From: an uncultured Chthonomonadales bacterium
GTDB lineage: Bacteria > Armatimonadota > Chthonomonadetes > Chthonomonadales > CAJBBX01
Reading direction: 5' to 3'
DNA length: 64,000 bases
Assembly: GCA_938005745.1 (NCBI GenBank)
Contig: CALLMM010000018.1
Location: forward strand, 1,454 to 65,453
A program made the position numbers and the translations under genes. Of the stretch, positions 1 through 14,992 are shown in pieces (within the stretch, counting starts at the first letter, position 1; each line of letters starts with the position of its first letter). The notes beneath the pieces are model-generated. The model ran no database searches and was not told where the DNA came from. It saw only the letters and a list, made by a program, of their open reading frames with translations.

Positions 1-678
1 CTGTATAACAGTGAAGGCGCGGAGATCGGTAGCCTGTCGCTCCCGGAGTCGGTTTTCGGGGTGGAAGTCAACGTGCCCCTGATGCATCAGGCGGTGCAGA
101 CGGAAGAGGCGAACCAGCGGCAGGGGACCGCCGATACGAAGACGCGCAGCGAGGTGCGCGGCGGCGGCAAGAAGCCGTGGCGGCAGAAGGGAACGGGACG
201 CGCCCGTCAGGGCAGCATCCGCGCCCCGCACTGGCGGCATGGCGGCGTCGTCTTCGGACCGCATCCCCGCTCCTACGCCAAAGCGCTCCCCAAGAAGATG
301 CGCCAGGGCGCGCTGCGAAGCGCTCTCTCCGCCAAAGTTGCCAGCGGACAGGTGATCGGTCTGGATGCGCTGAAGCTGGAGAAGATCAAGACCCGGGAGG
401 TCGCCGCCATCCTCAAACGGCTGCCCCTGACCCGCGAAGTGAAAGCCAAGCACTACGAGGCGGATGATCAGCTGGTGGAGGGAACGAAGAAGAAGCCTTA
501 TAACGTGCTTCTGATCGTACCGGAGTACGACAGAACGCTGCTGCTGTCGTGCCGGAACATTCCCTATGTGACGCTGCGCTACGCGCCCAACTTCTCGGTG
601 CGCGATGTGCTGTCGGCAGGACGGGTCGTGCTGGCGCAGGAGGCGGTATCCAGGATTGAGGAGGTGCTGGCGAAATGA
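1..678 (+). CDS. rplD: 50S ribosomal protein uL4 (5' end cut by window edge, only a few codons missing)
   Basis: Frame 1 is open from base 1. uL4 signature [20 protein letters not shown] overlap with the following rplW. By eye, a ~20-aa insertion ([25 protein letters not shown]) relative to E. coli L4. Confidence 0.95.
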
Positions 679-965
679 AAGACCCGTTTCTGATTATCGA
701 GCGCCCGCTGCTGACGGAAAAGAGCATGGACCTGACGGCGCTCAACAAATACTCGTTCCGCGTTGCCAGAGACGCCAACAAGGTCGAGATCGCGCAGGCG
801 ATCGCGCAGATCTATAACGTCCGGGTCGCTAAGGTCAACACGATGATCGTCAAGGGCAAGAAGCGCCGCGTGGGACGCTTTCCGGAGGGGCGCACCAGCC
901 CCTGGAAGAAAGCCATCGTGACGCTGGCTCCCGGCGACAAGATCACTCTCTTCGAGGGTATCTAG
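675..965 (+). CDS. rplW: 50S ribosomal protein uL23
   Basis: 96 aa; ...[19 protein letters not shown]...V.VNTM motif pattern; position between rplD and rplB. Confidence 0.95.
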
Positions 966-1015
966 ATTTCCGGGTTCCGCCCGGGCGGAACCCGCATCCA
1001 GATTGGAGACACGCT

Positions 1016-1849
1016 ATGCCATTACGACAGTATAAGCCGACGACTTCGAGCCGCCGCTTCCGCTCTGTCTCTACCTTTGAAGAGATTACGGCAACCCGTC
1101 CGGAGAAGTCGCTGCTGGAGCCGCTGAAGAAGACCGGCGGACGCAACGCCCAGGGAAAGATAACGGCGCGATTCCGGGGCGGCGGCAACAAGCGGATGTA
1201 CCGCATCATAGATTTCAAGCGGGATAAGACCGATGTGGCGGGAACCGTCGCCACCATCGAGTACGATCCGAACCGCACCTGCCGCATCGCCCTCGTCCGG
1301 TATGAGGACGGCGACAAGCGCTACATCCTCGCCCCGGTGGGACTGAAGGTCGGGGATCGGGTGATCGCCAGCAGTTCGGCGGACATCAAGCCGGGCAACT
1401 GCCTGCCGCTGCGCGCCATTCCGGTGGGAACGGTGATCCACAATGTGGAGATGACGCTCGGCAAGGGCGGGCAGCTCGTCCGCTCGGCGGGAGCCAGCGC
1501 GCAGCTCATGGCGAAAGAGGGCAAGTACGCGCAGGTTCGCCTGCCCTCCGGCGAGGTGCGCCGCGTGCTGATCGAGTGCAAAGCCACCATCGGACAGGTC
1601 GGCAATGTGGATCATGAGAACGAGTCCTGGGGCAAGGCGGGGCGCACCCGCTGGACCGGCAAACGCCCGCATGTGCGCGGCGTGGTGATGTCCCCGCGGG
1701 ACCATCCGCACGGCGGCGCCGAAGCAAAAGCGCCGGTCGGTCAGCGACGCGGACCGCGCACGCCGTGGGGCAAGCCGGCGCTGGGCTACAAGACCCGCCG
1801 CAACAAGGCTACGACCAAGTTCATCGTTCGCAGAAGGGACAAGAAGTAG
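1016..1849 (+). CDS. rplB: 50S ribosomal protein uL2
   Basis: 277 aa; [15 protein letters not shown] and [13 protein letters not shown] motifs typical of uL2; S10-operon order. Confidence 0.97.
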
Positions 1850-1913
1850 GCTGCCGGGAGCGCGCCGCCTGCGCGGCAGGCGGCAGTCCTCCGGCGCTAC
1901 GGGGAGATAGAGG

Positions 1914-2201
1914 ATGGGTCGTTCGGTTAAAAAGGGACCTTATGCCGATCCGAAGCTGATTGCGAAGGTGGAGCAGATGAATGAGAAGGGAGAGAAGAGG
2001 GCGATCAAGACCTGGTCGCGCCGTTCCACCATCTTTCCCCTGTTCATCGGGCATACCTTCATGGTGCACGACGGCAGAAAGCATATTCCGGTGTTCGTGA
2101 CGGAGAATATGGTGGGACACAAGCTGGGCGAATTCGCCCCCACCCGCCTGTTTCGCGGACACGCCGGGCAGCAGGTCGAACGTCGAACACAGATCAGGTA
2201 G
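1914..2201 (+). CDS. rpsS: 30S ribosomal protein uS19
   Basis: 95 aa; [10 protein letters not shown]...[37 protein letters not shown]. Confidence 0.97.
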
Positions 2202-2261
2202 CGGGTAGAGGAGAGCAAGCGCGCCTTGCGCTCCCCCAGCCCTGCTGTCTCGGAGAGAGTC

Positions 2262-2957
2262 ATGGGAAAAGAGAAGACACCGCGAAGCTACAAGGATAAC
2301 CAGGCGATAGCGAAGGCGCTGAATGTTCGCGTTCCCCCGCGCAAGGCGCGTCTGGTCATGGACGCGATCCGGGGAAAGTATGTTTCGGACGCCCTCGCTA
2401 TCTTGAAATTCGTTCCCAACTTTGCGGCGCGCGCCATCGAGAAGGTGATCGAATCGGCCGCCGCCAACGCGGAGAACAGCCGCCCGCTCGATGAGCGGAC
2501 CGGCAGACCGATGGCGCCGCTGATTCGCGAAAACCTGAAGGTCGTTCGCTGTTTTGTGGATGAGGGACCGCGCATGAAGCGCATTCGCCCGCGCGCCCAG
2601 GGGCGGGTCTTCCGAATCCTCAAGCGGATGTGCCATATCACGGTGGTGGTGGAGGATGTCGCGCCCAAGCCGCGCCCGACCCGTCGGGCGACCTCCGGGC
2701 GCCGCGCCCAACCGGAAGCCGGAGCGCGTCAGGCGCGCGCCGCCGTTGCCGGAGCCGCCGCTGCCGTCGCCGCGGAGCAGACGAAAGCCGAAACCGCCGA
2801 GGAGACGACCCTGACCGAAGCGCAGGCGCAGGCGGCTGCCGCCGACCTGACGGCGAAGCTGGAGCAGGAGGAGGCCGTGGAAGCGGCGGAGACCGCCGAG
2901 CCGGAGACGACGGAGGAGACCGCCGCCTCGGACGACCAACCCGCAGCCGAGAAGTAG
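2262..2957 (+). CDS. rplV: 50S ribosomal protein uL22 with ~95-aa Ala/Glu/Thr-rich C-terminal extension
   Basis: Core [11 protein letters not shown]...AILKF.P...A..I.KV..SA.ANAE... is uL22. ATG at 2262 follows GGAGAGAG and is preferred over the track's TTG at 2226. The tail starts after ...[10 protein letters not shown]. Confidence 0.9.
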
Positions 2958-2971
2958 AGAGGGAGAGAGAC

Positions 2972-3757
2972 TTGGGACAGAAAATCAATCCAATCGGATT
3001 TCGGATCGGCGTCATTCGCGACTGGGAGAGCAAATGGTACCTGGATAAAGGGTACGCGGAGGCTCTGCACGAGGACTACCGGATCCGCCAGTGGGTCAAA
3101 AAGCATCACGGCAACGCGGCGATCTCGCGCGTCGAGATCGAGCGTCCCGGCGGTCAGGTCAAGGTGACGATCCATACAGCGAAGCCGGGCATCATCATCG
3201 GGCGCGGCGGCAAGGGCGTGGACGAGGTGCGGGACCACCTGAAGAAGCTGACGAACCGCTCTGTGCATGTCAACATCCAGGAGATTCGCCATCCGGACAT
3301 AGACGCGCAGCTGGTCGCCGAATCGATCGCGCAGCAGATCGAAAAGCGCATCGCCTACAAACGCGCCATGCGACAGGCGGTGATGCGCGCGATGAAGCTG
3401 GGCGTGCGCGGCATTCGCGTAACGTGCGCCGGTCGTCTGGCAGGCGCGGAGATGGCGCGTCGCGAAGGCACGCGCGAGGGCAAGATTCCGCTGCAGACCC
3501 TGCGCGCCGACATAGACTACGGCTTCGCGGAGGCGGCGACCACCTACGGCAACATCGGGATCAAGGTGTGGATCTATAAGGGCGACGTTCTGCCCGGGCA
3601 GACCCGACCGACCGAGTCGGAGATTGTGCCCCGCCGGGAGGCGATGCGCGCCGAGCGTTCTGATCGCGGCGGACGCGGCGGACGCGGCGGCGGTGATCGC
3701 GGCGGTCGCGGTCGCGGCGGTCGCGGCGGCAGCGGCGGCGGCAGCAAAGGAGAGTAA
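2972..3757 (+). CDS. rpsC: 30S ribosomal protein uS3 with RGG-rich C-terminal tail
   Basis: Canonical N-terminus (L)[22 protein letters not shown] begins at TTG 2972, in frame with the 2630 track ORF; upstream of that the frame overlaps rplV. KH-domain [10 protein letters not shown]. Tail reads [33 protein letters not shown]. Confidence 0.9.
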
Positions 3758-3762
3758 TCGCC

Positions 3763-4260
3763 ATGTTGATGCCAAAGAGAGTCAAGTACCGCAAGCAGCA
3801 CCGGGGACATCGGCGCGGCAAGGCGCAAGCCGGCAACACGTTCAACTTCGGCGAGTACGCTCTGCAGGCGCTGGAGTCGTGCTGGCTGACCTCGAACCAG
3901 ATTGAGGCGGCGCGTATTGCGATGACCCGCCACATCCGCCGCGGCGGAAAGATATGGATCCGCGTCTTCCCGGATAAGCCCTTCACCAAGAAGCCCGCCG
4001 AGACCCGGATGGGGTCGGGCAAAGGCGCGCCGGAAGGGTGGGTCGCGGTGGTCAGACCCGGACGGATTCTGTTTGAGATGTCGGGTGTCAATGAGGACCT
4101 GGCGCGGGAGGCGATGCGCCGCGCCGCGCACAAGCTGCCGATTGACGTGAAGTTCATAACGCGCAAGCAGATGGAAGCAGAGGCGCAGAGCGCTGCGGAG
4201 AACGAGCAGGAGGAGAGTCATGCCGGAGGAGAAACGGAAGCAGACACTGGAGCGGCTTAG
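3763..4260 (+). CDS. rplP: 50S ribosomal protein uL16 with acidic C-terminal tail
   Basis: [15 protein letters not shown]... is the canonical uL16 N-terminus. At 165 aa it is ~25 aa longer than usual, and its 3' end overlaps rpmC by 41 nt. Confidence 0.95.
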
Positions 4261-4471
4261 AGGGCTGAGCGACGCGGAGCTGGCGACAGAGCTGAAGAAT
4301 CTCCGCGCGCGGCTCTATAACCTGCGGCGAGATCATGTCTCGCGGCAGCTGGAGAATACCGCAGCCATTCCGCATACGAAAAGAGAGATCGCGCGGGTGC
4401 TGACCCTCATCTCAGAGCGGTCGAAGGCAGCGGCGGCGGCAAAAGCGGCGGCGGAGAAGAGAGAGGAGTAA
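4220..4471 (+). CDS. rpmC: 50S ribosomal protein uL29
   Basis: 83 aa; L..LS..EL..EL.NLR..L.NLR pattern; AGGAGG precedes ATG 4220. Confidence 0.9.
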
Positions 4472-4474
4472 CGG

Positions 4475-4750
4475 ATGGCGGAGACGAACGCAGCCCCGCC
4501 GAGGGGCCGCCGAAAGACCCGGATCGGACGGGTGGTCAGCGATAAGATGGAGATGACGGTCGTGGTGGCGGTGGAGACGATGTTCCGACATCCGCTCTAC
4601 GGCAAGACGATGCGTCGCACCAAGAAGTTCAAGGCGCACGACGCCAACAACGAATGCGGTATCGGCGATACCGTGGAGATCATGGAGACGCGCCCGCTCT
4701 CCAAAGAGAAGCGGTGGCGCGTGGTCCAGATTATAGAAAAAGCGAAATAG
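4475..4750 (+). CDS. rpsQ: 30S ribosomal protein uS17
   Basis: 91 aa; [15 protein letters not shown]....HP.YGK......K..AHD..N....GD.V.I.E.RPLSK.KRW. Confidence 0.95.
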
Positions 4751-4840
4751 AGTACACACGACGGAGTTCGGGAGGCGCGCCGCGGGCGTCTCGTCCCCTT
4801 GCCTTCTCAACCCGTCTGACGATATTCCGGAGAGATAGCC

Positions 4841-5209
4841 ATGATTCGACCCTATACCCGCCTGCGCGTCGCAGACAACAGCGGCGCGCGCGAAATCCTG
4901 TGTGTGCGGGTGATGAAAGGCTCCAACGCCAAGGACGCGCGCGTGGGCGATGTGATCGTGGGCGTCGTCAAGTCGGCGACCCCCGGTCAGCAGGTCAAGA
5001 AGAGCGACGTGGTGAAGGCGGTGATCGTGCGCACCAAGCAGCCGATCCGCCGCGCGGACGGCTCGGCGCTTCGCTTCGATGACAACGCCTGCGTGGTGAT
5101 CACCAACGCCCTGGAGCCGCGCGGAACCCGCGTGTTCGGTCCGGTGGCGCGCGAACTGCGCGACCGCAACTTTATGAGAATTATCTCGCTGGCGCCGGAG
5201 GTGCTGTGA
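4841..5209 (+). CDS. rplN: 50S ribosomal protein uL14
   Basis: 122 aa; MI...[13 protein letters not shown]....; first gene of the spc operon after a 90-nt spacer. Confidence 0.97.
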
Positions 5210-5628
5210 TGGCAGAGAAGCGAAAACCGGCGGAGTACCCGGTAAAACTACGCATCCGCAAGGGCGACACGGTCATGGTCATCTCCGGCAAGGACGGTCC
5301 GCAGGGAGATCAGCCGGGGAAGCAGGGGAAAGTCCTGCGCGCCTTCCCGCAGATCAACAAGGTTCTGGTTGAGGGCGTGAATATCATCATCAAGCACCAG
5401 AAGGCGCGTCAGACCGGTCGTCCGGGACGCGGGGGCGTGCGGCAGATGCAGGAGGGAGGGCGCATCTCCAAGCCCGCCCCGATCCATGCCTCCAAAGTCA
5501 TGCTGGTCTGCCCCAACTGCAACAAGCCGACGCGCGTGGGCTACGCCTTCCGTGAAGGAGAGGAGAAGCTCTCCGCGCGCAAGTACCGCGTCTGCAAGCG
5601 GCGCGACTGCGGAAAACCGATTGACTAG
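5209..5628 (+). CDS. rplX: 50S ribosomal protein uL24 with CxxC...Cx4C C-terminal motif
   Basis: KOW motif [17 protein letters not shown] 5209 overlaps the rplN TGA by 1 nt; GTG 5206 is the alternative start. Four Cys occur in ...[16 protein letters not shown]...[14 protein letters not shown]. Confidence 0.9.
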
Positions 5629-5702
5629 CCGGTGAGCCGCGCGCCCCGGGAAGCCGGAACCGGAGTCCTGCGGAGCGCGCAAACCGTGACGGGAGAGAGA
5701 GC

Positions 5703-6254
5703 ATGGCTCGACTGAAGGAAGTGTATAAGACGAAGATCGTGCCCGGTCTGCAGAAGCAGTTCGAATACGGCAACATCATGCAGGTTCCCAGACTGGAGAA
5801 GATCGTGCTGAACATGGGCGTGGGGCAAGCCGGACAGACGGGCGGCGACTCCAAGCTGCTGGACAACGCGATGCGCGATATGGCGATCGTGGCGGGGCAG
5901 AAGCCCGCGGTCAGCCGCGCCAAGAAGTCGGTCTCGAACTTCAAGATTCGCGCCGGCGCGCGGATCGGGTGCAAGGTGACCCTGCGGGGCGACCGGATGT
6001 ACGAGTTTCTGGATCGCCTGATCTCCATCGCACTGCCCCGTGTGCGAGACTTTCAGGGCATCAACCCCAACTCGTTCGACGGACGCGGCAACTTCGCGAT
6101 GGGCGTGAAGGAGCAGCTGATCTTCCCGGAGATTGACTACGATAAGATTGACAAGGTGCGCGGCATGGACATCATCATCTGCACCACCGCCAGGACGGAT
6201 GAAGAGGCGCGCGCACTGCTCAAAGCGTTCGGGATGCCGTTCAGAGAGAAGTAG
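5703..6254 (+). CDS. rplE: 50S ribosomal protein uL5
   Basis: 183 aa; MARLKE.Y...I.P.L...F.Y.N.MQVPR.EKIV.NMGVG. Confidence 0.97.
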
Positions 6255-6344
6255 GGCGTGCGCGCGCGGCGGAGAGGCGGCAGGGGGAGACGTTTCTGAA
6301 CAGAGCCTCTCGCCAATCAATCACCTTTTCAAGGACGGGGAGCG

Positions 6345-8420
6345 ATGAAAAAGTATGGCGTGGATGCCATCCGCAATATCGGGCTTTTCGGGCATCAGGG
6401 GTCTGGAAAGACCTCGCTGGCTGAGGCGATGCTGTTTGTTTCCGGAGGGATTGACCGACAGGGACGCACGGACGACGGAACCGCGACCACCGACTTCGAC
6501 CCGGAGGAGATCCGGCGTAAGATAAGCATCAACATCGGGCTGGCTCCCTTGGAGTGGCACGACTGCAAGATCAACGTGCTGGATGTTCCGGGCTACCTGG
6601 ATTTTCAGGGTGAGGTGCGCAGCGCGCTGCGGGTGGTGGATGCGGCAGTGCTGGTAACCCCGGCGCAGTCCGATCTGGAGGTGGGCTTCGAGATCGCCTG
6701 GGAGCAGGCGTCCCTGCTCAACCGCCCCCGCGCCGTCTTCATCAACCGGATGGACCGCGAAAACGCCGACTTCTTCCGGGTGGTGGAGCGGCTGCGCGCC
6801 CTCTACGGAAATGCCATCGCCCCCGTTCAGATACCGATCGGGCAGGCGGAGAGCTTCACGGGCATCGTGGACCTGATCCACATGAAAGGCTACACCGGCG
6901 TCGGGCGCGATTTTACCGAGGTTCCGATCCCGGACGACCTGCAAGAGGTGGTGCAGAAGTACCGCGAGATGCTGGTGGAGTCGGCGGCGGAAGGCGACGA
7001 CTCCCTGATCGAAAAGTACTTTGAGGAGGGAACCCTCAGCGACGAAGAGGTGATTCACGGGCTGCACGAGGGGATTGACGCAGCCAAAGTGGTTCCGGTA
7101 CTGTGCGGCTCCGCGACCCGCAATATGGGCGCGGCGGCGCTGCTGAACCTGATCGTGGAGGCGTTCCCCAACCCGACAGAGGCGCACCCCGCGCACGGAC
7201 AGACGCCCGACGGAAAAGAGGCGACCCGCAAAGCGTCGGAGTCGGAGCCGTTCAGCGCGCTGGTCTTCAAGACCCTTGCCGACCCGTTCGTGGGACAGCT
7301 GACCTACTTCCGGGTCTTCTCCGGCTCGGTGAAGTCCGATTCGCGCATCTGGAACGCCAGTTCCGGCAGCGAGGAGCGGGTCGGTCAACTCTACATCGTC
7401 AAAGGCAAGACGCAGGAGGCGGCGAGCGAGATCGGAACGGGAGACATCGGGGCGGTCGCTAAACTGACGCATACGCGCACCGGCGACACGCTGTGCGACC
7501 CGGCGAAGCCGATCATCCTCGATCCCATACAGTTTCCGAAACCGATCTATGAGATCGCCATCGTCCCCAAAACGAAGGTGGACGAGGATAAGCTGGGACC
7601 GGCGCTGCAGCGGGTGGCGGGCGAAGACCCCAGCTTCTCCTTCCGCCGCGACCCGGAGACGGGGCAGACCGTCATGAGCGGGATGGGCGAGACGCACCTG
7701 AACATCGTGGTCGAGAAGCTCAAGAAGTTCGGCGCGAACGTGGAGATCGTGCCGCTGCGCGTTCCGTATCGCGAGACGATCCAGAGCAAGGCGGAGGGAC
7801 AGGGCAAACACAAGAAGCAGACCGGAGGGCGCGGACAGTACGGCGACTGCCATATCCGACTGGAGCCGCTGCCCCGCGGAGGCGGCTTCGAGTTCGTGGA
7901 CGCCATTGTGGGCGGCGCGATCCCGCGCCAGTATATTCCGGCGGTCGAAAAGGGCGTAGTGGAGGCGATGTCCACCGGCATCCTGTCCGGGCATCCGGTG
8001 GTGGATGTGCGCTGCACCTGCTACGACGGCTCCTATCACGATGTGGACTCTTCGGAAGCCGCTTTCAAGATGGCGGGCATCCTGGCGTTCAACTCCGTCG
8101 CCATGAAGGCGTCGCCCGTCATTCTGGAGCCGGTGATGAACGTCTCGGTGGTGGTTCCGGAAGAGATGATGGGCGATGTGATGAGCGACCTGTCCGGCAA
8201 ACGGGGGCGCATCGCGGGAACCGAATCGCTGGGGCATGGACGGGTTCGGATCCGGGCGCTGGTCCCGCAGGGCGAGATGCTGCGCTACGCCATTGATCTG
8301 CGCTCCATCTCGCGCGGGCGCGGCACCTTCGAGGTCGAGCCGTCGCACTACGAAGAGGTTCCGCCGCATATCGCGCAGCAGATTATCGCCGAGTACCAGA
8401 AGAGCCGGGAAGAGCACTAG
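6345..8420 (+). CDS. EF-G-like translational GTPase paralogue (divergent G domain: GHQGSGKT / RRKISI / DVPGY / NRMD)
   Basis: 691 aa with full EF-G-length architecture: G domain, then ...FKT..DPFVGQLTYFRV.SG.. (domain II), ...GETHL.I....L... (domain III/IV), ...KKQTGGRGQYG.. (domain IV) and ...M.D.....RG.I.G... (domain V). It lies inside the spc operon between rplE and rpsZ. Confidence 0.9.
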   Translation: MKKYGVDAIRNIGLFGHQGSGKTSLAEAMLFVSGGIDRQGRTDDGTATTDFDPEEIRRKISINIGLAPLEWHDCKINVLDVPGYLDFQGEVRSALRVVDAAVLVTPAQSDLEVGFEIAWEQASLLNRPRAVFINRMDRENADFFRVVERLRALYGNAIAPVQIPIGQAESFTGIVDLIHMKGYTGVGRDFTEVPIPDDLQEVVQKYREMLVESAAEGDDSLIEKYFEEGTLSDEEVIHGLHEGIDAAKVVPVLCGSATRNMGAAALLNLIVEAFPNPTEAHPAHGQTPDGKEATRKASESEPFSALVFKTLADPFVGQLTYFRVFSGSVKSDSRIWNASSGSEERVGQLYIVKGKTQEAASEIGTGDIGAVAKLTHTRTGDTLCDPAKPIILDPIQFPKPIYEIAIVPKTKVDEDKLGPALQRVAGEDPSFSFRRDPETGQTVMSGMGETHLNIVVEKLKKFGANVEIVPLRVPYRETIQSKAEGQGKHKKQTGGRGQYGDCHIRLEPLPRGGGFEFVDAIVGGAIPRQYIPAVEKGVVEAMSTGILSGHPVVDVRCTCYDGSYHDVDSSEAAFKMAGILAFNSVAMKASPVILEPVMNVSVVVPEEMMGDVMSDLSGKRGRIAGTESLGHGRVRIRALVPQGEMLRYAIDLRSISRGRGTFEVEPSHYEEVPPHIAQQIIAEYQKSREEH

Positions 8421-8547
8421 CGCGCCGGACCTAGAGCGAGACAGGACGCGCCGATAGAACATCACAACGGTCCTCCTCTGAAGCGGGAGGACAGATCCAG
8501 CGTTACCAGCCACGCGCATACCGTGGCTCCGACGGGAGGAAAAACCA

Positions 8548-8733
8548 TTGGCAAAGCAGTGCCTGATTGAGAAGGCAAAACGAAAACCGAAGTTCGCCGT
8601 GCGCGCCTATACGCGCTGCAACGTCTGCGGGCGGGCGCGCGGCGTCTTCCGCAAGTTCGGTCTGTGTCGAATCTGCTTCCGCGAGATGGCGCACCGGGGG
8701 CTGATCCCCGGCGTCACCAAGTCGAGCTGGTAG
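8548..8733 (+). CDS. rpsZ: 30S ribosomal protein uS14, short zinc-binding type Z
   Basis: 61 aa; [46 protein letters not shown] with CxxC...CxxC; TTG start after GGGAGG. Confidence 0.95.
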
Positions 8734-8745
8734 GAGGAGAGGAAG

Positions 8746-9147
<402 letters not shown>

Positions 9148-9169
9148 TCGAGGCACAAGGAGCTTAGCT

Positions 9170-9754
9170 ATGTCACGTATTGGCAAACGCCCCATCCCGC
9201 TGCCGAAAGGCGTGGAGATCAAGGTCGGGACAGGGGAGATCACGGTCAAGGGTCCGAAGGGAACCCTGACCAAGCCGATCCACCCCGATATGATCGTGGA
9301 GCAGACGGACGGAAACCTGGAGATCAAGCGCCCCTCCGACAGCAAGGAGCATCGCTCGCTGCACGGCTTGACCCGCACCCTCATCGCCAACATGGTGGAG
9401 GGAGTGACCAACGGCTATGCGCGGACGCTGGATGTCTACGGCGTCGGCTACCGCACCGCGATGAACGGCAAGAACCTGGCGTTGTCCGTCGGCTTCTCAC
9501 ACGGCATCGAACTGGCTCCCCCGCCGGGTATCGAGTTTGAGGCGGGAACCGATCAGCAGTCCCGTACTCCCTACCTGGTCGTCAAAGGGATTGACAAGCA
9601 GCTGGTCGGGCAGATCGCCGCGCAGATCCGCCGTCTGCGTAAGCCGGAGCCGTATAAAGGCAAGGGTATCCGCTATCGGGGCGAGCAGATCCGCCGCAAA
9701 GCCGGCAAAGCCGGGAAAGCGGGCGGCAAGGGCGGAAAAGGCGGCAAGAAGTAG
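9170..9754 (+). CDS. rplF: 50S ribosomal protein uL6 with Lys/Gly-rich C-terminal tail
   Basis: MSRIGK.PI.LP.GV......... is the canonical uL6 start; tail reads KAGKAGKAGGKGGKGGKK. Confidence 0.95.
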   Translation: MSRIGKRPIPLPKGVEIKVGTGEITVKGPKGTLTKPIHPDMIVEQTDGNLEIKRPSDSKEHRSLHGLTRTLIANMVEGVTNGYARTLDVYGVGYRTAMNGKNLALSVGFSHGIELAPPPGIEFEAGTDQQSRTPYLVVKGIDKQLVGQIAAQIRRLRKPEPYKGKGIRYRGEQIRRKAGKAGKAGGKGGKGGKK

Positions 9755-9786
9755 CGCCGCCGGGACAGTACGCCGGCTCGTGCGCC

Positions 9787-9815
9787 TTGCAATTGCCCTC
9801 TGCCACAGGTATACT
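9787..9815 (+). promoter_or_regulatory. Candidate sigma70-type internal promoter in the rplF-rplR spacer
   Basis: TTGCAA (9787-9792), exactly 17 nt, then TATACT (9810-9815). Followed by an 8-bp-stem hairpin GCCGGCAG/CTGCCGGC (9845-9869) and a GAGGGG RBS before ATG 9883. Confidence 0.35.
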
Positions 9816-9882
9816 ATACATTCGCGCCTCCTGAAGGCGGACGTGCCGGCAGGTCGGAAATCTGCCGGCGAGGGGTTGACAT

Positions 9883-10242
9883 ATGGATAAGAAGCATGCA
9901 CTGCGCCTGAAGCGGCATCGCCGCGTGCGCGCAAAGGTTTTCGGGACGGCGGAGAGACCCCGCCTGAACGTGTTCCGTAGCCTGAAACATATCTACGTTC
10001 AGTTGATAGACGATGACGCCGGGCATACGTTGGCGTCGGCTTCGACGGTGGAGGAGAGCTTCCGCACGACGGGAGCGACCGGCGGCAACGTCGCGGCAGC
10101 CAGAGCGGTCGGAGCGAAGATTGCTGAGCGCGCAAAGGAGAAGGGAATCACGCGGGTTGTGTTCGACCGGGGCGGATTTCGCTATCACGGGCGCGTCAAG
10201 AACCTTGCCGACGCCGCGCGCGAGGGCGGGCTGGAGTTTTAA
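9883..10242 (+). CDS. rplR: 50S ribosomal protein uL18
   Basis: 119 aa; R.RR..R.R.K..GT..RPRL.VFRS.KHIY.Q.IDD..G.TL..AS. Confidence 0.95.
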
Positions 10243-10298
10243 GATACGGGCAGACCGTTCCGCCATCGGTCCGGTCGTCCCCGATCAAGGAGAGATTC

Positions 10299-10835
10299 AT
10301 GCCGAAAATTAACGCGGATACGCTGAACCTCGAAGAGCGGGTGGTCCGCACCAATAAGGTGCAGAAGACCCATAAGGGCGGACGCACCATGAGCTGGAAC
10401 GCGCTCGTGGTGGTGGGCGACCGGAAGGGGTACGTGGGCGCGGGCATAGGCAAGGCGCGTGCGATCCCCGACGCCATTCGCAAAGGGGTGGAGGCTGCTA
10501 AGAAGAACATGATCGAGGTTCCGATTGTGGGCACGACGATCCCGCATGAGATCCTCGCCTCGCACGGCGCGGCGGAGGTGCTGCTCAAGCCCGCCTCTCC
10601 CGGTACGGGAATCGTCGCTGGCAGCTCCGTGCGCACGATTCTTGAGCTGGCGGGGATCAGCGATGTGCTGGGCAAGTCGCTGGGATCGGCGAATGCGATC
10701 AACATCGCGTGGGCGACCATGACGGCGCTGAAGCGGCTGAAGCGCGCCGAGACGGTCGCCAGCCTGCGCGGCAAAGAGGTCGGGGAACTCGTTCCCTGGC
10801 TGGTGAAGATTGAGGCGGCGGAAGGAGCGAACTAG
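10299..10835 (+). CDS. rpsE: 30S ribosomal protein uS5
   Basis: 178 aa; ...V.R..KV.K.GR...F.ALVVVGD..G.VG.G.GKA..VP.AI.K. Confidence 0.95.
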
Positions 10836-10837
10836 AG

Positions 10838-11035
10838 ATGGGATCGCTGAAGATCACCCTGACCCGCAGCCCCATCGGGTTCAATGAGAAGCAGAAGCGC
10901 ACCGCCGCCGCGCTGGGGCTGACCCGTCTGCATAAGACGGTGCTGCGCCCGGATAACGAACAGGTGCGGGGAATGGTGCGCGCCATTGAGCATCTGGTCA
11001 AGGTGGAGAGGGTCGAGGCGGAGGCGCAGGCTTAG
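10838..11035 (+). CDS. rpmD: 50S ribosomal protein uL30
   Basis: 65 aa; LKITL.RS.IG....Q..T..ALGL......V......RGM......LV.VE. Confidence 0.9.
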   Translation: MGSLKITLTRSPIGFNEKQKRTAAALGLTRLHKTVLRPDNEQVRGMVRAIEHLVKVERVEAEAQA

Positions 11036-11137
11036 CCACGCTTCGCCGCGACGGCTCTGCGGGCTGTCAGACGCGGTTATAATGAGTGAGCGCGGGCGTT
11101 GAGCCGGCGCATTGCGAGAGGATAAGAGGCATACTCC

Positions 11138-11590
11138 ATGCAGATTCATGATCTAAAACCGGCTCCCGGTTCCAATAAACGGCGCAAGATCCTCGGGCGC
11201 GGACCGGGTTCGGGACACGGAAAGACCAGCGGGCGCGGGCATAAGGGAAACAAGGCGCGCGGGCAGATCAACCCCAACTTTGAGGGCGGACAGACCCCGC
11301 TGCATCGCCGCCTGCCGCAGCTTCGCGGCTTCAAGCCGGTCAATAAGAAGTTCTACGCGATCGTCAACGTCGGCGCGCTGCAGAGTTTCGAGGACGGAAC
11401 GGAGGTAACCGCCGCGCTGCTTGCGGAGCGGGGGCTGTTGCGCAGCGCCGAAGAGGAGTTGAAGATCCTGGGCGACGGTGTCCTGACAAAGAAGCTGTCG
11501 GTGGTCGCCCATAAGTTCAGCAAAAGCGCCCTGGAGAAGATTCAGTCGGTCGGCGGAACCGCCCGAACGATTGAGACGGCGCGGAGGTAG
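11138..11590 (+). CDS. rplO: 50S ribosomal protein uL15
   Basis: 150 aa; L..L.P..GS.K.RKR.GRG.GSG.GKT.GRG.KG...R. Confidence 0.95.
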
Positions 11591-11596
11591 CTGAAG

Positions 11597-12925
11597 ATGC
11601 TGGAGTCGCTGGCGAAGGCGTTTCAAATCCCGGAGTTGAAGCGTCGCATCTTTTTTAACCTGGCAATGTTCGCCGTGTTTGTGCTCGGCGTGCATATTCC
11701 GGTGCCGGGGGTGGATCATGACAAACTGGCTGCCATCTTCCAGCAGGGAGGCTTTCTGAACCTGGTAGATGTCTTCTCTGGCGGCGCCCTGCGCAAGATG
11801 ACGCTCTTCGCCATGGGGATCACTCCCTATATTAACGCCTCCATCATCATGCAGATGCTGACCCTCGCGGTTCCGAAACTGGAGCAGTTGAGCAAAGAGG
11901 GCGAAGCCGGACGCAAGCAGATCGCGCGAATCACGCGGCGCCTGACCATCGCGCTGGCGACGTTCCAGGCGATCGGCTTCTCGTTCACCTTTCGCGAGGC
12001 GGCAGCCGGAGCTTCGACCTTCTCGCAGACCGTGGCGATCGCCCAGATGGTGATCATGATGGTCGCGGGAACGATGTTCCTGCTGTGGATGGGCGAGCAG
12101 ATCACGGAGCGGGGGATCGGCAACGGCGTCTCGGTGATCATCTTTGCGGGAATTATGGCAAGCTTCCCGTTCCAGGTTGGACAGGTGGCGCTGCAGGTGC
12201 GCGAAGGACTGGTGAGCGCGTTCGGGATCGTTATGTTCCTCGCGCTGTTCGTGGGAACTATCTACCTGATCGTGATGATCACGCAGGCGGAGCGGCGGAT
12301 ACCGATCCAGCATGTGAAAAAACAGGTGGGGATGCGGCAGACCGGAGGCAGCAACTTCCTGCCGATCAAGGTGAACACGGCGGGCGTTATCCCGATCATC
12401 TTCGCTATCTCGATGCTGCTGTTCCCCTCGCAGATCCTGGCGGCGATCCCCGGCAACGACGGATTTATCGCCGATCTGAAACGCTGGGCGAACTATCTGA
12501 CGCCGAGCACGCAGCACTGGTGGTCGCTGCTGATCTACGGACTGATGATCGTCGGGTTCACCTACTTCTATACGGCGGTGGTGATGAACGTCAACGATAT
12601 GGCGGACAATCTGAAGAAGTACGGCAACTTCATTCCGGGCATCCGCCCGGGACGCCCGACGTTTGAGTACCTGGATCGCGTGGTCTCTCGCGTGACGCTG
12701 GCGGGAGCGGTCTTCCTGGCAGGCGTGGCGCTGATACAGTATGTCGCGCCGGGCTTGACCGGGGTCTCGCTCTCCTCGTTCGCTCTGATCGGAGGCACGT
12801 CGCTGCTGATTGTCGTGGGAGTCGCCATCGAGGTGATGCAGGCGATCGAGGCGCAGTTGATCATGCGCAACTACGAGGGCTTTATCAAGCAGTCGTCCAA
12901 GTCGCCCGCCGGATTCTATGCCTGA
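11597..12925 (+). CDS. secY: Preprotein translocase subunit SecY
   Basis: 442 aa, polytopic; ...GI.PYI.ASII.Q.L....P.LE.L.KEGE.GR.KI...TR......A..Q.; conserved position after rplO. Confidence 0.97.
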   Translation: MLESLAKAFQIPELKRRIFFNLAMFAVFVLGVHIPVPGVDHDKLAAIFQQGGFLNLVDVFSGGALRKMTLFAMGITPYINASIIMQMLTLAVPKLEQLSKEGEAGRKQIARITRRLTIALATFQAIGFSFTFREAAAGASTFSQTVAIAQMVIMMVAGTMFLLWMGEQITERGIGNGVSVIIFAGIMASFPFQVGQVALQVREGLVSAFGIVMFLALFVGTIYLIVMITQAERRIPIQHVKKQVGMRQTGGSNFLPIKVNTAGVIPIIFAISMLLFPSQILAAIPGNDGFIADLKRWANYLTPSTQHWWSLLIYGLMIVGFTYFYTAVVMNVNDMADNLKKYGNFIPGIRPGRPTFEYLDRVVSRVTLAGAVFLAGVALIQYVAPGLTGVSLSSFALIGGTSLLIVVGVAIEVMQAIEAQLIMRNYEGFIKQSSKSPAGFYA

Positions 12926-12955
12926 CAGGCATCGCCTGCCTGACAGGCATCGCCT
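12920..12955. repeat. Perfect 18-nt tandem duplication (GCCTGACAGGCATCGCCT x2) spanning the secY stop codon
   Basis: 12920-12937 and 12938-12955 are identical. Each unit contains the 11-bp palindrome GCCTGACAGGC. Confidence 0.9.
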
Positions 12956-12970
12956 CAGAAAGGGGCGCGC

Positions 12971-13624
12971 ATGATACTCGTACTGTTCGGTCCTCCCGGC
13001 GCGGGGAAAGGGACGCAGGGGGCGCGCATCGTTCAGCAGTACGGCATTCCAAAGATCTCGACGGGCGAGATATTCCGCGATCTGGCAGCCGCCCATTCGG
13101 AACTGGGGCTGAAGGCGAAGGCGTACTGGTCACAGGGCAAGCTGGTTCCCGATGAGATCGTCGTCGGGCTGGTGCGGGAGAGGGTCGCGGATCCAGACTG
13201 CCGGAGAGGCTTTATTCTGGACGGCTTTCCCCGCACGGTCTCGCAGGCGGATACGCTGCAGGCGATGCTGGAGGAGACCGGGAAGCGTCTGAACGGAGTT
13301 CTGAACCTGCGGGTGGAGGAGCCGGAACTGATCCGGCGTCTCTCCGGCAGGCGCACCTGCTCCAACTGCGGCGCGACCTACCACACGACGGCGATGCCGT
13401 CACGGGTGGATGATATCTGCGATCACTGCGGCAATCGGCTGATCCAGCGCGCCGACGATACGCCGGAGTCGATTCACCGGCGGCTGGTGGAGTATGAAGA
13501 GAAGACCGCTCCGCTGATCCACTACTACGAGGAGCGGGGCGTGCTGTATCATATAGACGCCAACGAGGGACCGGACGCGGTCTATGTGAAGGTGCAGGCC
13601 GTCCTGCGGAAGATTGCATGTTAA
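12971..13624 (+). CDS. adk: Adenylate kinase (zinc-lid type)
   Basis: P-loop GPPGAGKGTQ; lid CSNCGATYH...CDHCG carries four Cys. Confidence 0.97.
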   Translation: MILVLFGPPGAGKGTQGARIVQQYGIPKISTGEIFRDLAAAHSELGLKAKAYWSQGKLVPDEIVVGLVRERVADPDCRRGFILDGFPRTVSQADTLQAMLEETGKRLNGVLNLRVEEPELIRRLSGRRTCSNCGATYHTTAMPSRVDDICDHCGNRLIQRADDTPESIHRRLVEYEEKTAPLIHYYEERGVLYHIDANEGPDAVYVKVQAVLRKIAC

Positions 13625-13655
13625 CGCAGCGAGAGAGGAAGAAAGCGCGTAGACG

Positions 13656-14423
13656 ATGGTCATTCTGAAGACCGCCAGTGAAATCGAGAAGATGCGGGCT
13701 GCCGGGCGCGTGGTCTATCAGGCGCTGCAGGCGATGAAAAACGCCATTGTGCCGGGGCAGACCACCACCTATGATCTGGAGAAAGCCGCCATCGAGGTTC
13801 TGAACGCGCACGGAGCTACCTCTCCGTTTCTGGGATATGCGCCGCATAACCACCCGCCCTTCCCCGCGTGGACCTGCATCTCGGTGAATGAAGAGGTGGT
13901 GCACGGAATACCGGGACGGCGCGTGCTGCAGGAGGGCGACATCGTCAGCTGCGATGTGGGGGTGCAGCTGAACGGCTACTACGCCGACAGCGCGTGGACC
14001 TTTCCGGTCGGACAGATATCGGAGGAGGCGCAGCGTCTTCTGAAGGTTACCCGGGAGGCGCTCTATAAGGGGATCGCCCAGGCAAAAGCCGGCAACCGCG
14101 TCGGGGACATCGGGCACGCCATCGAGCGGCATGTTTCGCAGCACGGCTATTCGATCGTGCGGGACCTGGTGGGGCACGGCGTCGGGCGGTCTCTGCACGA
14201 GGATCCGCAGATACCTAACTATGGCAGACCCGGTACCGGCACCGTGCTGGAGCCGGGCATGACCATCGCCATCGAGCCGATGGTAAACATAGGCAGGCGC
14301 GACATTCAGGCGCTTGCCGACGAGTGGACCATTGTGACCAGCGACCGCACGCTGTCCGCTCATTTCGAGCATACGGTCGCCATCACCAGAAACGGCGCGT
14401 TAATCATTACGCAGGGAGATTGA
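13656..14423 (+). CDS. map: Type I methionine aminopeptidase
   Basis: 255 aa; ...HGIP....L..GDIV..D.G....GY..D...T..VG... and ...GHG.G...HE.P..... Confidence 0.95.
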   Translation: MVILKTASEIEKMRAAGRVVYQALQAMKNAIVPGQTTTYDLEKAAIEVLNAHGATSPFLGYAPHNHPPFPAWTCISVNEEVVHGIPGRRVLQEGDIVSCDVGVQLNGYYADSAWTFPVGQISEEAQRLLKVTREALYKGIAQAKAGNRVGDIGHAIERHVSQHGYSIVRDLVGHGVGRSLHEDPQIPNYGRPGTGTVLEPGMTIAIEPMVNIGRRDIQALADEWTIVTSDRTLSAHFEHTVAITRNGALIITQGD

Positions 14424-14771: not shown

Positions 14772-14878
14772 AGGGCGTCGGCGGCAGCGGATGCGCAGAA
14801 CAACGGACCGCAGAGCGGTATCGCTGTGTGGAGACGTCTTTTTGCGCGTTCTGATGCCCGCCCGCAAGTGAGGAACGA

Positions 14879-14992
14879 ATGAAAGTACGAGCCTCTGTTA
14901 AAAAGATATGCGACAAGTGCAAGATTATCCGGCGCGAAGGCGTCTTGCGCGTTATCTGCAAAAATCCAAAGCACAAGCAGAGACAGGGATAG
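14879..14992 (+). CDS. rpmJ: 50S ribosomal protein bL36 (zinc-ribbon form)
   Basis: Absent from the ORF track (too short). Hand translation: [37 protein letters not shown], 37 aa. Confidence 0.9.

What the first reader, a model, noticed from the sequence alone, without database searches (positions are those of the whole stretch)
6255..8547. EF-G paralogue with catalytic His->Tyr embedded in the spc ribosomal-protein operon between rplE and rpsZ
Seen in sequence:
- A full-length (691 aa) EF-G-like ORF sits on the same strand between uL5 (ends 6254) and uS14 (starts 8548). Spacers are 90 and 127 nt, and composition matches its neighbours.
- The P-loop is intact (GHQGSGKT) and G4 is NRMD.
- G3 reads DVPGYLDF: the His of the universal DxPGH motif is Tyr (TAC, 6594-6596).
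- Switch I reads RRKISI instead of ERGITI.
- The 3' spacer carries two hairpins (stems 8470-8476/8486-8492 and 8508-8514/8522-8528) just before the rpsZ RBS.

Established knowledge: in trGTPases this His positions the hydrolytic water on the sarcin-ricin loop. rplE and rpsN/Z are normally adjacent, and canonical fusA sits in the str operon.

Inference: this is a GTP-binding factor with impaired or altered hydrolysis, co-transcribed with core ribosomal proteins. It could act in ribosome assembly, hibernation, rescue or protection rather than as a translocase.
Basis: partly seen in the sequence, partly recalled or inferred. Interest (0 to 1): 0.7.

Follow-up and report, generated by a model that had tools for sequence, protein, structure and literature searches.

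The report
EF-G2 paralogue inside ribosomal-protein operon
The gene is a real second copy of translation factor EF-G from the already described EF-G2 (EFG II) family, whose members routinely lack the catalytic histidine; the only apparently undescribed feature is that most Armatimonadota keep it wedged between two ribosomal-protein genes.

Summary
A 691-aa EF-G-like ORF (6345-8420, +) lies between rplE and rpsZ. It has GHQGSGKT, RRKISI, DVPGYLDF (Tyr84 = TAC 6594-6596) and NRMD.

The protein is an ordinary member of the known EFG II / EF-G2 subfamily. All six diagnostic residues of Margus et al. 2011 are present. Tyr or Phe at the catalytic-His position is family-wide. It occurs in Thermus EF-G-2 (PDB 1WDT), which is reported GTPase-active, and in Mycobacterium EF-G2, which is reported inactive. 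Tyr alone therefore does not show impaired hydrolysis.

A canonical fusA (AHIDAGKT/ERGITI/DTPGHVDF) lies in the str operon 8.9 kb upstream, in a strain whose paralogue is 99% identical.

The rplE-EFG II-rpsZ arrangement is specific to Armatimonadota:
- It was found in 21 of 21 loci from most lineages of the phylum, with spacers down to 3-15 nt or overlapping stop/start codons.
- It was absent from 63 EFG II loci of other phyla.
- It was absent from 4 of 4 loci of one Fimbriimonadaceae-type subclade.

The gene is under purifying selection comparable to that on its ribosomal neighbours.

The most likely function is an alternative ribosome-binding translocase with weak or unconventional GTP hydrolysis, made together with ribosomal proteins. 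This is inferred, not shown. Interest is moderate.

The parts
5703..6254 (+). rplE (uL5), the gene immediately upstream
   Evidence: ORF and translation. Pfam Ribosomal_L5 on the product that is 100% identical across the tblastn match, in L001.
6148..6175 (+). Sigma-70-like promoter match (TTGACA-16-CATCAT) inside the 3' end of rplE. It is a possible internal promoter but is unverified.
   Evidence: 10 of 12 positions match. Two sites were found in 4.6 kb against 0.6 expected. This is a consensus match only.
6255..6344 (+). 90-nt rplE-EFG II spacer with an SD-like GGGGAG before the ATG
   Evidence: No terminator-like site, no Rfam hit, and folding no better than shuffles (z = +0.11). It is nearly identical in L008 and not conserved in L021 or L030.
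6345..8420 (+). EFG II / EF-G2 paralogue, 691 aa. Pfam domains: G domain 6369-7169, domain II 7248-7499, III 7533-7748, IV 7758-8111, V 8121-8381.
   Evidence: NCBIfam NF009381 scores 920 bits against a cutoff of 583.
6390..6413 (+). P-loop (G1) GHQGSGKT. The first residue is Gly (Ala in canonical EF-G), followed by Ser-Leu (Thr-Thr in canonical EF-G).
   Evidence: The EFG II diagnostic positions 16 and 25 come from PMC3150367.
6513..6530 (+). Switch I / G2 RRKISI in place of ERGITI. Ser replaces the Mg-coordinating Thr.
   Evidence: The relaxed xxxSx consensus of EFG II is described in PMC3150367.
6582..6605 (+). G3 / switch II DVPGYLDF. Tyr84 (TAC 6594-6596) occupies the position of the catalytic His.
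   Evidence: Tyr is conserved in 119 of 120 close homologues. Y or F was found in 84 of 84 loci.
6744..6755 (+). G4 NRMD, the guanine-specificity motif, intact
   Evidence: Relatives have NKMD or NRMD.
7818..7844 (+). Domain IV loop I, QTGGRGQYG, the tip that reaches the decoding centre in EF-G
   Evidence: Q492, G494, G495, G497 and Q498 are invariant in 37 diverse EFG II sequences. The loop is identical to the canonical EF-G loop.
8028..8051 (+). Domain IV loop II, GSYHDVDS
   Evidence: G562, H565, V567, D568 and S569 are invariant in 37 EFG II sequences.
8421..8547 (+). 127-nt EFG II-rpsZ spacer. It holds hairpin 1 (8470-8492), hairpin 2 (8508-8528) and the SD GGGAGG (8534-8539).
   Evidence: No T-run terminator. 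Whole-spacer folding z = -0.23. Hairpin 2 and its 3' flank are conserved in window, L008, L021 and L030.
8548..8733 (+). rpsZ (short Zn-type uS14, TTG start), the gene immediately downstream

Best explanation
The gene is the Armatimonadota orthologue of the EFG II (EF-G2) paralogue family.

Origin and expression:
- It was inserted between rplE and rpsZ early in the phylum and is inherited vertically there.
- It is transcribed with the spc ribosomal-protein genes, so it is made in step with ribosomes.
- The canonical translocase fusA remains in the str operon upstream.

Proposed mechanism (inferred):
- The protein binds GTP. G1 and G4 are intact; G5 was not examined.
- It docks at the ribosomal factor-binding site like EF-G.
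- It inserts its fully conserved domain IV tip into the A site. There it promotes or stabilises tRNA-mRNA translocation, with GTP hydrolysis that is slow, dispensable or achieved without the usual histidine.

It would thus be an alternative, low-GTP-cost translocase or ribosome-bound factor rather than a dead enzyme.

Shown here: family membership, paralogy with fusA, the conserved operon position, and purifying selection. Inferred: co-transcription, GTP binding, A-site engagement and the kind of activity.
For: Identity:
- All five EF-G domains are present. NF009381 scores 920 bits against a cutoff of 583.
- All six type I EFG II diagnostic residues of PMC3150367 are present: G16, L25, S61, T310, G354 and K373 in this protein.
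- A neighbour-joining tree separates six canonical EF-G sequences (100/100 bootstraps) from the EFG II sequences. The Armatimonadota sequences form one clade (89/100).

Paralogy:
- The order rpsL-rpsG-fusA(697 aa, AHIDAGKT/ERGITI/DTPGHVDF/NKMD)-tuf-S10 operon-...-rplE-EFG II-rpsZ is found on one contig of a strain whose EFG II is 99% identical.
- The two factors are 43% identical.

Operon position:
- Present in 17 of 17 GTDB Armatimonadota loci with flanking sequence, at 94% down to 51% identity.
- Also present in P0422, P0411, P0434 and L101.
- Absent from 63 of 63 EFG II loci of Bacillota, Chloroflexota and other phyla.

Co-transcription:
- Same strand, no terminator-like site.
- Relatives have spacers of 3-15 nt or overlapping stop/start codons.

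Selection: dN/dS is 0.07-0.19, comparable to uL5 and uS8 (0.06-0.15).

Mechanism:
- Domain IV loops are invariant across 37 diverse EFG II sequences, as are the G1 and G3 core residues.
- The catalytic-His position varies across the family: Y, F, L, N, D, S and others. Tyr and Phe interchange within Fimbriimonadia, where 19 of 120 sequences have Phe.
- Precedents: Thermus EF-G-2 carries Tyr and is reported to hydrolyse GTP and translocate. Bacteroides EF-G2 is reported to support GTP-independent translation.
Against: - No biochemical, transcriptomic or proteomic data exist for any Armatimonadota EFG II.
- Characterised relatives disagree. Mycobacterium EF-G2 (Tyr98) has minimal ribosome-dependent GTPase, cannot recycle ribosomes, does not complement fusA(ts) and is assigned a stress-regulatory role. 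H88Y nearly abolishes the GTPase of EF-G1.
- In one Armatimonadota subclade the gene is outside the operon (4 of 4 loci). Operon membership is therefore not essential to its function.
- In Chthonomonadaceae the upstream spacer is 229-828 nt, and a promoter-like site lies in the end of rplE in this window. Partly independent expression is possible.
- Codon adaptation barely discriminates in this genome: EFG II 0.713, ribosomal proteins 0.673 +/- 0.05, other genes 0.639 +/- 0.053. It says nothing firm about abundance.
- The trees are neighbour-joining only.
Confidence: 0.55

Rival explanations
1. Non-translocating ribosome-binding regulator of the Mycobacterium EF-G2 type. It binds GTP and the 50S/70S factor site without hydrolysis and parks or protects ribosomes (stress, stationary phase or hibernation-like role). 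The operon position only ensures supply.
For: - It has the same Tyr substitution and relaxed switch I as Msm EF-G2. That protein has minimal ribosome-dependent GTPase and no recycling activity, is assigned a role under stress conditions, and was imaged on stationary-phase 50S subunits.
- H88Y in EF-G1 nearly abolishes GTPase.
Against: - The G domain here is closer to canonical than that of Msm EF-G2. It keeps the P-loop His and N(K/R)xD, whereas Msm EF-G2 has GPSGG and TKLD.
- Domain IV tip loops are invariant, which fits A-site work better than simple parking.
- Co-expression with ribosomal proteins fits growth-linked rather than stress-linked synthesis.
Confidence: 0.25
2. A fully GTPase-competent second translocase, like Thermus EF-G-2, that uses a non-histidine catalytic arrangement. 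Hydrolysis would be altered in mechanism but not impaired, with the two EF-Gs sharing elongation and recycling work.
For: - Thermus EF-G-2 has GHAGSGKT and DAPGYGDF, is 43% identical over the N-terminal G domain, and is reported to have ribosome-dependent and higher intrinsic GTPase plus poly(Phe) activity.
- The acidic G' helix, G1 and G4 are kept.
Against: - The position is freely Y, F, L, N, D or S across the family, so no conserved substitute catalytic side chain sits there.
- Two of the three characterised members are reported to lack GTPase.
Confidence: 0.25
3. Ribosome assembly or quality-control GTPase, encoded in the spc operon because it acts on nascent subunits.
For: The only support is the conserved position among ribosomal-protein genes and purifying selection.
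Against: - No member of the EF-G family considered here is characterised as an assembly factor (own knowledge).
- EFG II in other phyla shows no conserved ribosome-biogenesis neighbours.
- Fimbriimonadaceae-type genomes keep the gene away from ribosomal-protein genes.
Confidence: 0.07
4. Antibiotic ribosomal protection protein (Tet(M)/Tet(O)-like) or other resistance factor.
For: It belongs to the same trGTPase superfamily, and low-scoring matches to tet_protect models exist.
Against: - NF012153 scores 296 bits against a cutoff of 775, and all Tet models fall far below their cutoffs.
- The domain IV loops are of EF-G type.
- Inheritance is phylum-wide and vertical, with native composition.
Confidence: 0.03
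5. It is the housekeeping EF-G of this organism, with no other fusA present.
For: It passes the generic TIGR00484 EF-G cutoff (710 bits against 659) and is annotated 'elongation factor G' in public records.
Against: - A canonical 697-aa fusA with every canonical motif lies between rpsG and tuf on the same contig, in a strain whose EFG II is 99% identical.
- A canonical-type copy is also seen upstream in L020.
- Related Armatimonadota fusA proteins all have DTPGHVDF.
Confidence: 0.01

Closest known systems
EFG II subfamily of bacterial EF-G paralogues (Margus, Remm, Tenson 2011, PMC3150367)
   Same: - All six type I diagnostic residues are present.
- The P-loop starts with G instead of A, and G2 is relaxed to xxxSx.
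- It coexists with an EFG I gene in the str operon.
- It shows the long-branch divergence typical of the subfamily.
   Different: That study described a conserved genome context only for EFG I (the str operon) and none for EFG II. Here the gene has a conserved, phylum-specific position inside the spc operon.
Thermus thermophilus EF-G-2 (PDB 1WDT/2DY1)
   Same: - It has Tyr at the catalytic-His position (DAPGYGDF) and a GHxGSGKT P-loop.
- It is 43% identical over the N-terminal G domain.
- It is reported to be active in GTPase and poly(Phe) assays.
   Different: - G4 is TKLD in Thermus and NRMD here.
- The chain is shorter (665 aa).
- In whole-protein scores, Thermus EF-G-1 (643 bits) ranks above EF-G-2 (500 bits) against this protein.
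- As far as I know the Thermus gene is not in the spc operon (own knowledge, not tested).
Mycobacterium smegmatis EF-G2 (PDB 9K0Z/9K10)
   Same: The catalytic His is replaced by Tyr (Tyr98), switch I is relaxed, and it is a second EF-G beside a canonical one.
   Different: - The Msm P-loop is GPSGG and its G4 is TKLD, so it is much more degenerate. The window protein keeps the P-loop His and NRMD.
- The Msm protein is reported to be GTPase-poor and to have a regulatory role under stress conditions.
Bacteroides thetaiotaomicron EF-G2 (fusA2, BT2167; PDB 7UVP/8DMF; Han et al. 2023, cited in PMC10294740 and PMC12775393)
   Same: It is an alternative EF-G paralogue reported to lack GTPase activity yet sustain (slow) translocation. 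It is the functional model for the mechanism proposed here.
   Different: - It belongs to a different sub-group. NF058620 scores 600 bits against a cutoff of 1000.
- It is a stand-alone gene strongly induced by carbon limitation. The gene here is embedded in a ribosomal-protein operon.
- Its residue at the His position was not checked here.
Canonical EF-G (EFG I, fusA)
   Same: It has the same five-domain architecture and domain IV loops, and is 43% identical to the cognate fusA product. Full-length alignment to Thermus EF-G gives E = 4.6e-192.
   Different: It lacks AHIDAGKT, ERGITI and DTPGH, and it is not in the str operon.

Membership tests
EFG II / EF-G2 subfamily (Margus et al. 2011) | Five-domain EF-G architecture (G with G', II, III, IV, V) | tested here: met
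   Pfam GTP_EFTU, EF-G_D2, EFG_III, EFG_IV and EFG_C are all above their cutoffs.
EFG II / EF-G2 subfamily (Margus et al. 2011) | Six type I diagnostic residues: Gly16, Leu25, Ser61, Thr291, Gly333, Lys/Arg352 (Thermus EF-G-2 numbering) | tested here: met
   The window protein has G16, L25, S61, T310 (FKTLADP), G354 (VKGKTQ) and K373 (AVAKL). This was read from the alignments against Table 1 of PMC3150367.
EFG II / EF-G2 subfamily (Margus et al. 2011) | G2 RGITI relaxed to xxxSx | tested here: met
   The motif is RKISI. The consensus is described.
EFG II / EF-G2 subfamily (Margus et al. 2011) | Coexists with an EFG I gene located in the str operon | tested here: met
   L088 carries rpsL-rpsG-fusA-tuf upstream on the same contig, in a strain whose EFG II is 99% identical. 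The window itself starts in rplD, so this was not seen on the window's own DNA.
EFG II / EF-G2 subfamily (Margus et al. 2011) | Phylogenetic separation from EFG I | tested here: met
   In the neighbour-joining tree the canonical clade has 100/100 bootstraps and the window protein falls among non-His sequences. No maximum-likelihood tree was run.
EFG II / EF-G2 subfamily (Margus et al. 2011) | GTP binding and ribosome binding | not testable with these tools
   The only evidence is motif conservation: G1 and G4 intact, and the acidic G' helix retained.
Canonical EF-G (EFG I, fusA) | AHIDAGKT P-loop, ERGITI switch I, DTPGH with the catalytic His | tested here: not met
   The window protein has GHQGSGKT, RRKISI and DVPGY.
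Canonical EF-G (EFG I, fusA) | Located in the str operon between rpsG and tuf | tested here: not met
   It lies between rplE and rpsZ. The str position is occupied by another gene.
Canonical EF-G (EFG I, fusA) | Passes the TIGR00484 equivalog cutoff | tested here: inconclusive
   It scores 710 bits against a cutoff of 659, so it passes. The model evidently does not separate EFG II from EFG I.
NCBIfam NF009377 'EF-G-like protein EF-G2' (equivalog) | Score at or above 890 bits | tested here: not met
   682 bits.
Bacteroidota EF-G2 (NF058620) | Score at or above 1000 bits | tested here: not met
   600 bits.
spdEFG1 (spirochaete/planctomycete/delta type) | Three-residue 'KDG' insertion in switch I | tested here: not met
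   There is no insertion. Switch I aligns without gaps to canonical EF-G.
Tetracycline ribosomal protection proteins (Tet(M)/(O)/(Q)) | NF012153 score at or above 775 bits | tested here: not met
   296 bits, and the specific Tet models score lower still.
BipA/TypA, LepA/EF4, RF3 | Equivalog cutoffs of 757, 534 and 473 bits | tested here: not met
   147, 107 and 132 bits.

The most novel reading that the evidence does not exclude
In Armatimonadota the histidine-less EF-G2 is not a stress accessory but a constitutive component of the translation machinery, co-regulated with ribosomal proteins since the origin of the phylum. It could be a co-equal or dominant translocase that moves the ribosome with little or no GTP hydrolysis, giving energy-sparing elongation in slow-growing oligotrophs. 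Its operon position would set its stoichiometry to ribosomes.
Probability: 0.12. Interest if true: 0.75.

Novelty: new variant of a known kind. Interest (0 to 1): 0.4.

Why it matters
EFG II is among the most widespread translation-factor paralogues whose function is unsettled. The three characterised members give conflicting answers.

- **A contrast to the studied cases.** In this lineage the gene has been locked into a core ribosomal-protein operon, with 3-15-nt spacers or coupled stop/start codons in several classes. The studied cases are stand-alone and stress-associated. Chthonomonas calidirosea is culturable, which makes the constitutive-versus-stress question directly testable.
- **A candidate marker.** The arrangement is a candidate synapomorphy for Armatimonadota.
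- **Practical cautions.** The protein is annotated simply as 'elongation factor G' and passes the generic TIGR00484 cutoff. It can therefore be mistaken for fusA in marker-gene or single-copy analyses. A missing catalytic His in an EF-G homologue should not be read as novel or as proof of inactivity.

Tried and rejected
- **Rfam.** A permissive scan of window 1-20000 and a gathering-threshold scan of five related loci found no known leader or regulatory RNA in the spacers.
- **Terminators.** The terminator scan found none in either spacer.
- **Spacer folding.** Whole-spacer folding was no better than shuffles, so the first hairpin is probably chance or lineage-specific.
- **Codon adaptation as an expression proxy.** It discriminates too weakly in this genome to use.
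- **Conserved neighbours in other phyla.** Only lineage-specific neighbours were found and nothing was shared across phyla. By my reading of the representative sequences they resemble an ABC-transporter ATPase, ETF, Ndk, an isoaspartate methyltransferase and a cobalamin adenosyltransferase. No domain scan was run.
- **Exact-DNA metagenome search.** A search meant to extend L002 upstream found nothing. The extension was obtained instead by looking up the identical uS19 protein.
- **Fragment protein search.** A search with the fusA C-terminal fragment returned mostly partial proteins. It still showed DTPGHVDF in all 22 relatives that have an N-terminus.
- **PDB profile search and P0193 query.** These were meant to expose the Thermus EF-G-2 and Bacteroides EF-G2 alignments but were dominated by canonical EF-G. 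Thermus EF-G-2 was then retrieved with a recalled N-terminal sequence that matched 1WDT exactly. The G3 motif of Bacteroides EF-G2 was never seen.
- **Han et al. 2023 (PMC9841332).** The paper is not held in the library.
- **Horizontal transfer into the operon.** Rejected because composition is native, synteny spans the phylum and the clade is monophyletic.
- **Pseudogene or relic.** Rejected because dN/dS is 0.07-0.19.
- **Structure prediction.** Not run, because full-length sequence alignment to solved EF-G structures (E about 1e-192) already settles the fold.
Full report
**1. Observation**

The window carries a typical S10-spc-alpha ribosomal-protein cluster on the + strand, from rplD to rplQ. 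Between uL5 (5703-6254) and the short Zn-type uS14 (8548-8733, TTG start) lies a 691-aa ORF at 6345-8420. The spacers on either side are 90 and 127 nt.

The ORF has all five EF-G domains. Its G motifs are GHQGSGKT (G1), RRKISI (switch I), DVPGYLDF (G3) and NRMD (G4). Tyr84 is encoded by TAC at 6594-6596. Base composition and GC3 match the neighbouring genes. Both hairpins described in the 3' spacer exist.

**2. What the protein is**

The best NCBIfam match is NF009381, an 'elongation factor G' subfamily model, at 920 bits against a cutoff of 583. The models for Tet ribosomal protection proteins, BipA, LepA and RF3 all score far below their cutoffs.

Margus et al. 2011 (PMC3150367) split bacterial EF-G into EFG I, spdEFG1/2 and EFG II. 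They list six positions that distinguish EFG II from EFG I. The window protein has the EFG II residue at all six: G16, L25, S61, T310, G354 and K373. This was read from the alignments. It also has the relaxed xxxSx form of the G2 motif, and it lacks the KDG switch-I insertion of spdEFG1.

In a neighbour-joining tree of 230 sequences the six canonical EF-G sequences form a clade with 100/100 bootstrap support. The window protein falls among the sequences that lack His. It is therefore a member of the known EFG II / EF-G2 family.

**3. The His->Tyr change is a family trait**

- 119 of 120 close homologues have D-x-P-G-Y.
- Of 84 genome loci from Armatimonadota, Bacillota (Negativicutes, Clostridia), Chloroflexota and Actinomycetota, 82 have Tyr and 2 have Phe.
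- Among 150 representatives at 50% identity the position is Y (64), F (29), or L, N, D, S, T, A, E and others. His occurs in 8, six of which have the canonical AH[IV]DAGKT P-loop.
- Within Fimbriimonadia, 19 of 120 sequences have Phe. The hydroxyl group is therefore not required.
- The PDB chain of Thermus thermophilus EF-G-2 (1WDT/2DY1) reads GHAGSGKT...DAPGYGDF...TKLD.
- A 2026 preprint states that Mycobacterium smegmatis EF-G2 has Tyr98 in place of His88. It also reports that H88Y nearly abolishes the GTPase of EF-G1.

The literature on the consequence is divided. Thermus EF-G-2 is reported to have ribosome-dependent and elevated intrinsic GTPase activity, plus poly(Phe) activity. Mycobacterium EF-G2 is reported to have minimal GTPase activity, no recycling activity, and a regulatory role under stress conditions. 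Bacteroides EF-G2 is reported to lack GTPase activity, to support GTP-independent translation, and to be induced by carbon limitation. Tyr84 alone therefore does not establish impaired hydrolysis.

**4. A canonical fusA exists**

The window begins in rplD, so the str operon is off its edge. I looked up the window's uS19, which is identical in a contig whose EFG II is 99% identical to the window's. This recovered the following order on one strand of a 23.8-kb contig: rpsL-rpsG-fusA-tuf-rpsJ-rplC-...-rplE-EFG II-rpsZ (L088).

That fusA encodes 697 aa with AHIDAGKT, ERGITI, DTPGHVDF and NKMD. It is 43% identical to EFG II. Related Armatimonadota fusA proteins all show DTPGHVDF.

**5. The operon position**

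A scan of one genome per GTDB species returned 80 loci. All 17 Armatimonadota loci with flanking sequence carry uL14-uL24-uL5-EFG II-uS14-uS8-uL6. These are Chthonomonadales, HRbin16 and several unnamed lineages, at 94% down to 51% identity. None of the 63 loci from other phyla has a ribosomal-protein gene next to EFG II.

In other phyla the neighbours are lineage-specific and share nothing across phyla.

Spacer lengths vary widely across the phylum.
- L014, L015, L019, L020 and L097: 3-15 nt upstream.
- L018 and L019: the EFG II stop overlaps or abuts the rpsZ start.
- Chthonomonadales: 40-255 nt upstream and 56-151 nt downstream.
- L013: 828 nt upstream.

The tight junctions imply co-transcription and, in places, translational coupling. 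The window has no terminator-like site in either spacer. One sigma-70-like match lies inside the 3' end of rplE.

**6. An exception**

A search seeded with the most divergent locus (L065) showed that its relatives are Fimbriimonadales. A tree of these sequences has two subclades.

- In subclade A the gene is in the spc operon in 4 of 4 tested cases: L065, P0422, P0411 and P0434. L101 also has the arrangement, but its EFG II was not placed in that tree.
- In subclade B (Fimbriimonadaceae and 'Armatimonadetes bacterium 55-13') it is a stand-alone gene in 4 of 4 tested cases: P0501, P0493, P0476 and P0131. In three of these an HDOD-domain gene lies nearby.

Ten metagenome contigs point the same way. 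Their uL5 carries an N-terminal Lys-rich extension like that of Fimbriimonadales uL5. In each, neither EFG II, uS14 nor uS8 was detected in the available downstream sequence (about 0.85-3.5 kb).

The simplest reading is that the cluster broke at this junction in one family and EFG II was released. However, I did not establish the taxon of those contigs, and I did not exclude paralogy. The arrangement is therefore ancestral or in the majority within the phylum, but it is not obligatory for function.

**7. Constraint**

Against L008, L021 and L030, dN/dS for EFG II is 0.07, 0.09 and 0.19. The same comparisons give 0.06-0.15 for uL5 and 0.09-0.10 for uS8.

Across 37 diverse EFG II sequences, several elements are invariant: the P-loop GK, the D-x-P-G core, and both domain IV tip loops (Q492/G494/G495/G497/Q498 and G562/H565/V567/D568/S569). 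Switch I and the catalytic position are free to vary.

This pattern shows strict selection on nucleotide binding and on the part that enters the A site, and relaxed selection on the canonical hydrolysis apparatus. It fits a factor that still works at the decoding centre with slow, dispensable or unconventional hydrolysis. That is the mechanism I favour, at roughly even odds. Recent work argues that EF-G binding, rather than hydrolysis, drives the early steps of translocation. This makes such a mechanism plausible.

**8. The spacers**

Neither spacer folds better than shuffled sequence (z = -0.23 and +0.11). There is no Rfam match.

The second hairpin and its flank, GTTACCrGCCrCG...CGTGGCTCCGACrGGAGGA, lie directly 5' of the rpsZ Shine-Dalgarno. 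This element is conserved in four Chthonomonadales species, and 3 of 13 pairs show compensatory changes. It could be a translational operator or a processing site for rpsZ, but four sequences are too few to decide. The first hairpin is found only in the closest strains.

**9. Novelty and score**

The protein family, its lack of the catalytic His and its uncertain function are all published. I found no paper that describes an EF-G paralogue in the spc operon or in Armatimonadota. The library is limited, so this is not proof that none exists.

I rate the finding a new variant of a known kind. It is an ordinary EFG II protein in a conserved, apparently unreported operon context. That context contrasts with the stand-alone, stress-linked loci of the characterised members. 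Interest is 0.4.

**Caveats**
- The trees are neighbour-joining only.
- The GTDB class of most MAGs is unknown.
- The evidence for fusA comes from a near-identical strain, not from the window itself.
- There are no expression or biochemical data for any Armatimonadota EFG II.

Noticed in passing
window 2969-3757 (uS3), 14424-14771 (IF1), 9170-9754 (uL6), 2226-2957 (uL22): Several translation proteins carry low-complexity tails. uS3 has a C-terminal [32 protein letters not shown]1 has an N-terminal extension of about 45 aa rich in Gly/Arg. uL6 has a C-terminal KAGKAGKAGGKGGKGGKK. uL22 has a C-terminal extension of about 110 aa rich in Ala/Glu.
   Followed up: no
window 5206-5628 (uL24): uL24 contains a Cys-rich, Zn-ribbon-like insertion ([34 protein letters not shown]) that is not usual for bacterial uL24.
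   Followed up: no
window 8499-8547; L008 6050-6106; L021 9344-9402; L030 9615-9671: A hairpin and flanking sequence immediately 5' of the rpsZ Shine-Dalgarno are conserved in four Chthonomonadales species. Three of 13 pairs show compensatory changes, and there is no Rfam match. It could be a cis-regulatory element for rpsZ.
   Followed up: partly
L095, L096, L100 (Fimbriimonadaceae-type contigs); L094: In one Armatimonadota subclade EFG II is a stand-alone gene. In three of four loci an HDOD-domain gene lies nearby. In two of those loci, LacI-type and DnaJ genes are also nearby. L094 instead has hrcA and SIS genes upstream and a NUDIX gene downstream.
   Followed up: partly
L102, L103, L106, L108, L109, L113, L122, L123, L126, L151: In these metagenome contigs uL5 has an N-terminal Lys-rich extension of about 15-25 aa, like Fimbriimonadales uL5. 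No EFG II, uS14 or uS8 was detected in the available downstream sequence (about 0.85-3.5 kb). The spc cluster therefore appears broken exactly at the junction where EFG II sits elsewhere. The taxon was not established.
   Followed up: partly
L013 2699-3528: The rplE-EFG II spacer is 828 nt in one Chthonomonadaceae MAG, with no convincing ORF and no Rfam hit. In L009, L010 and L012 it is 229-255 nt.
   Followed up: partly
window 6345-8420: The EFG II protein passes the generic TIGR00484 'EF-G equivalog' cutoff (710 bits against 659) and is named simply 'elongation factor G' in public records. It can therefore be confused with fusA in automated annotation or marker-gene sets.
   Followed up: yes
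window 4220-4260: The called uL16 (3763-4260) and uL29 (4220-4471) ORFs overlap by 41 nt. The same overlap is seen in related contigs.
   Followed up: no
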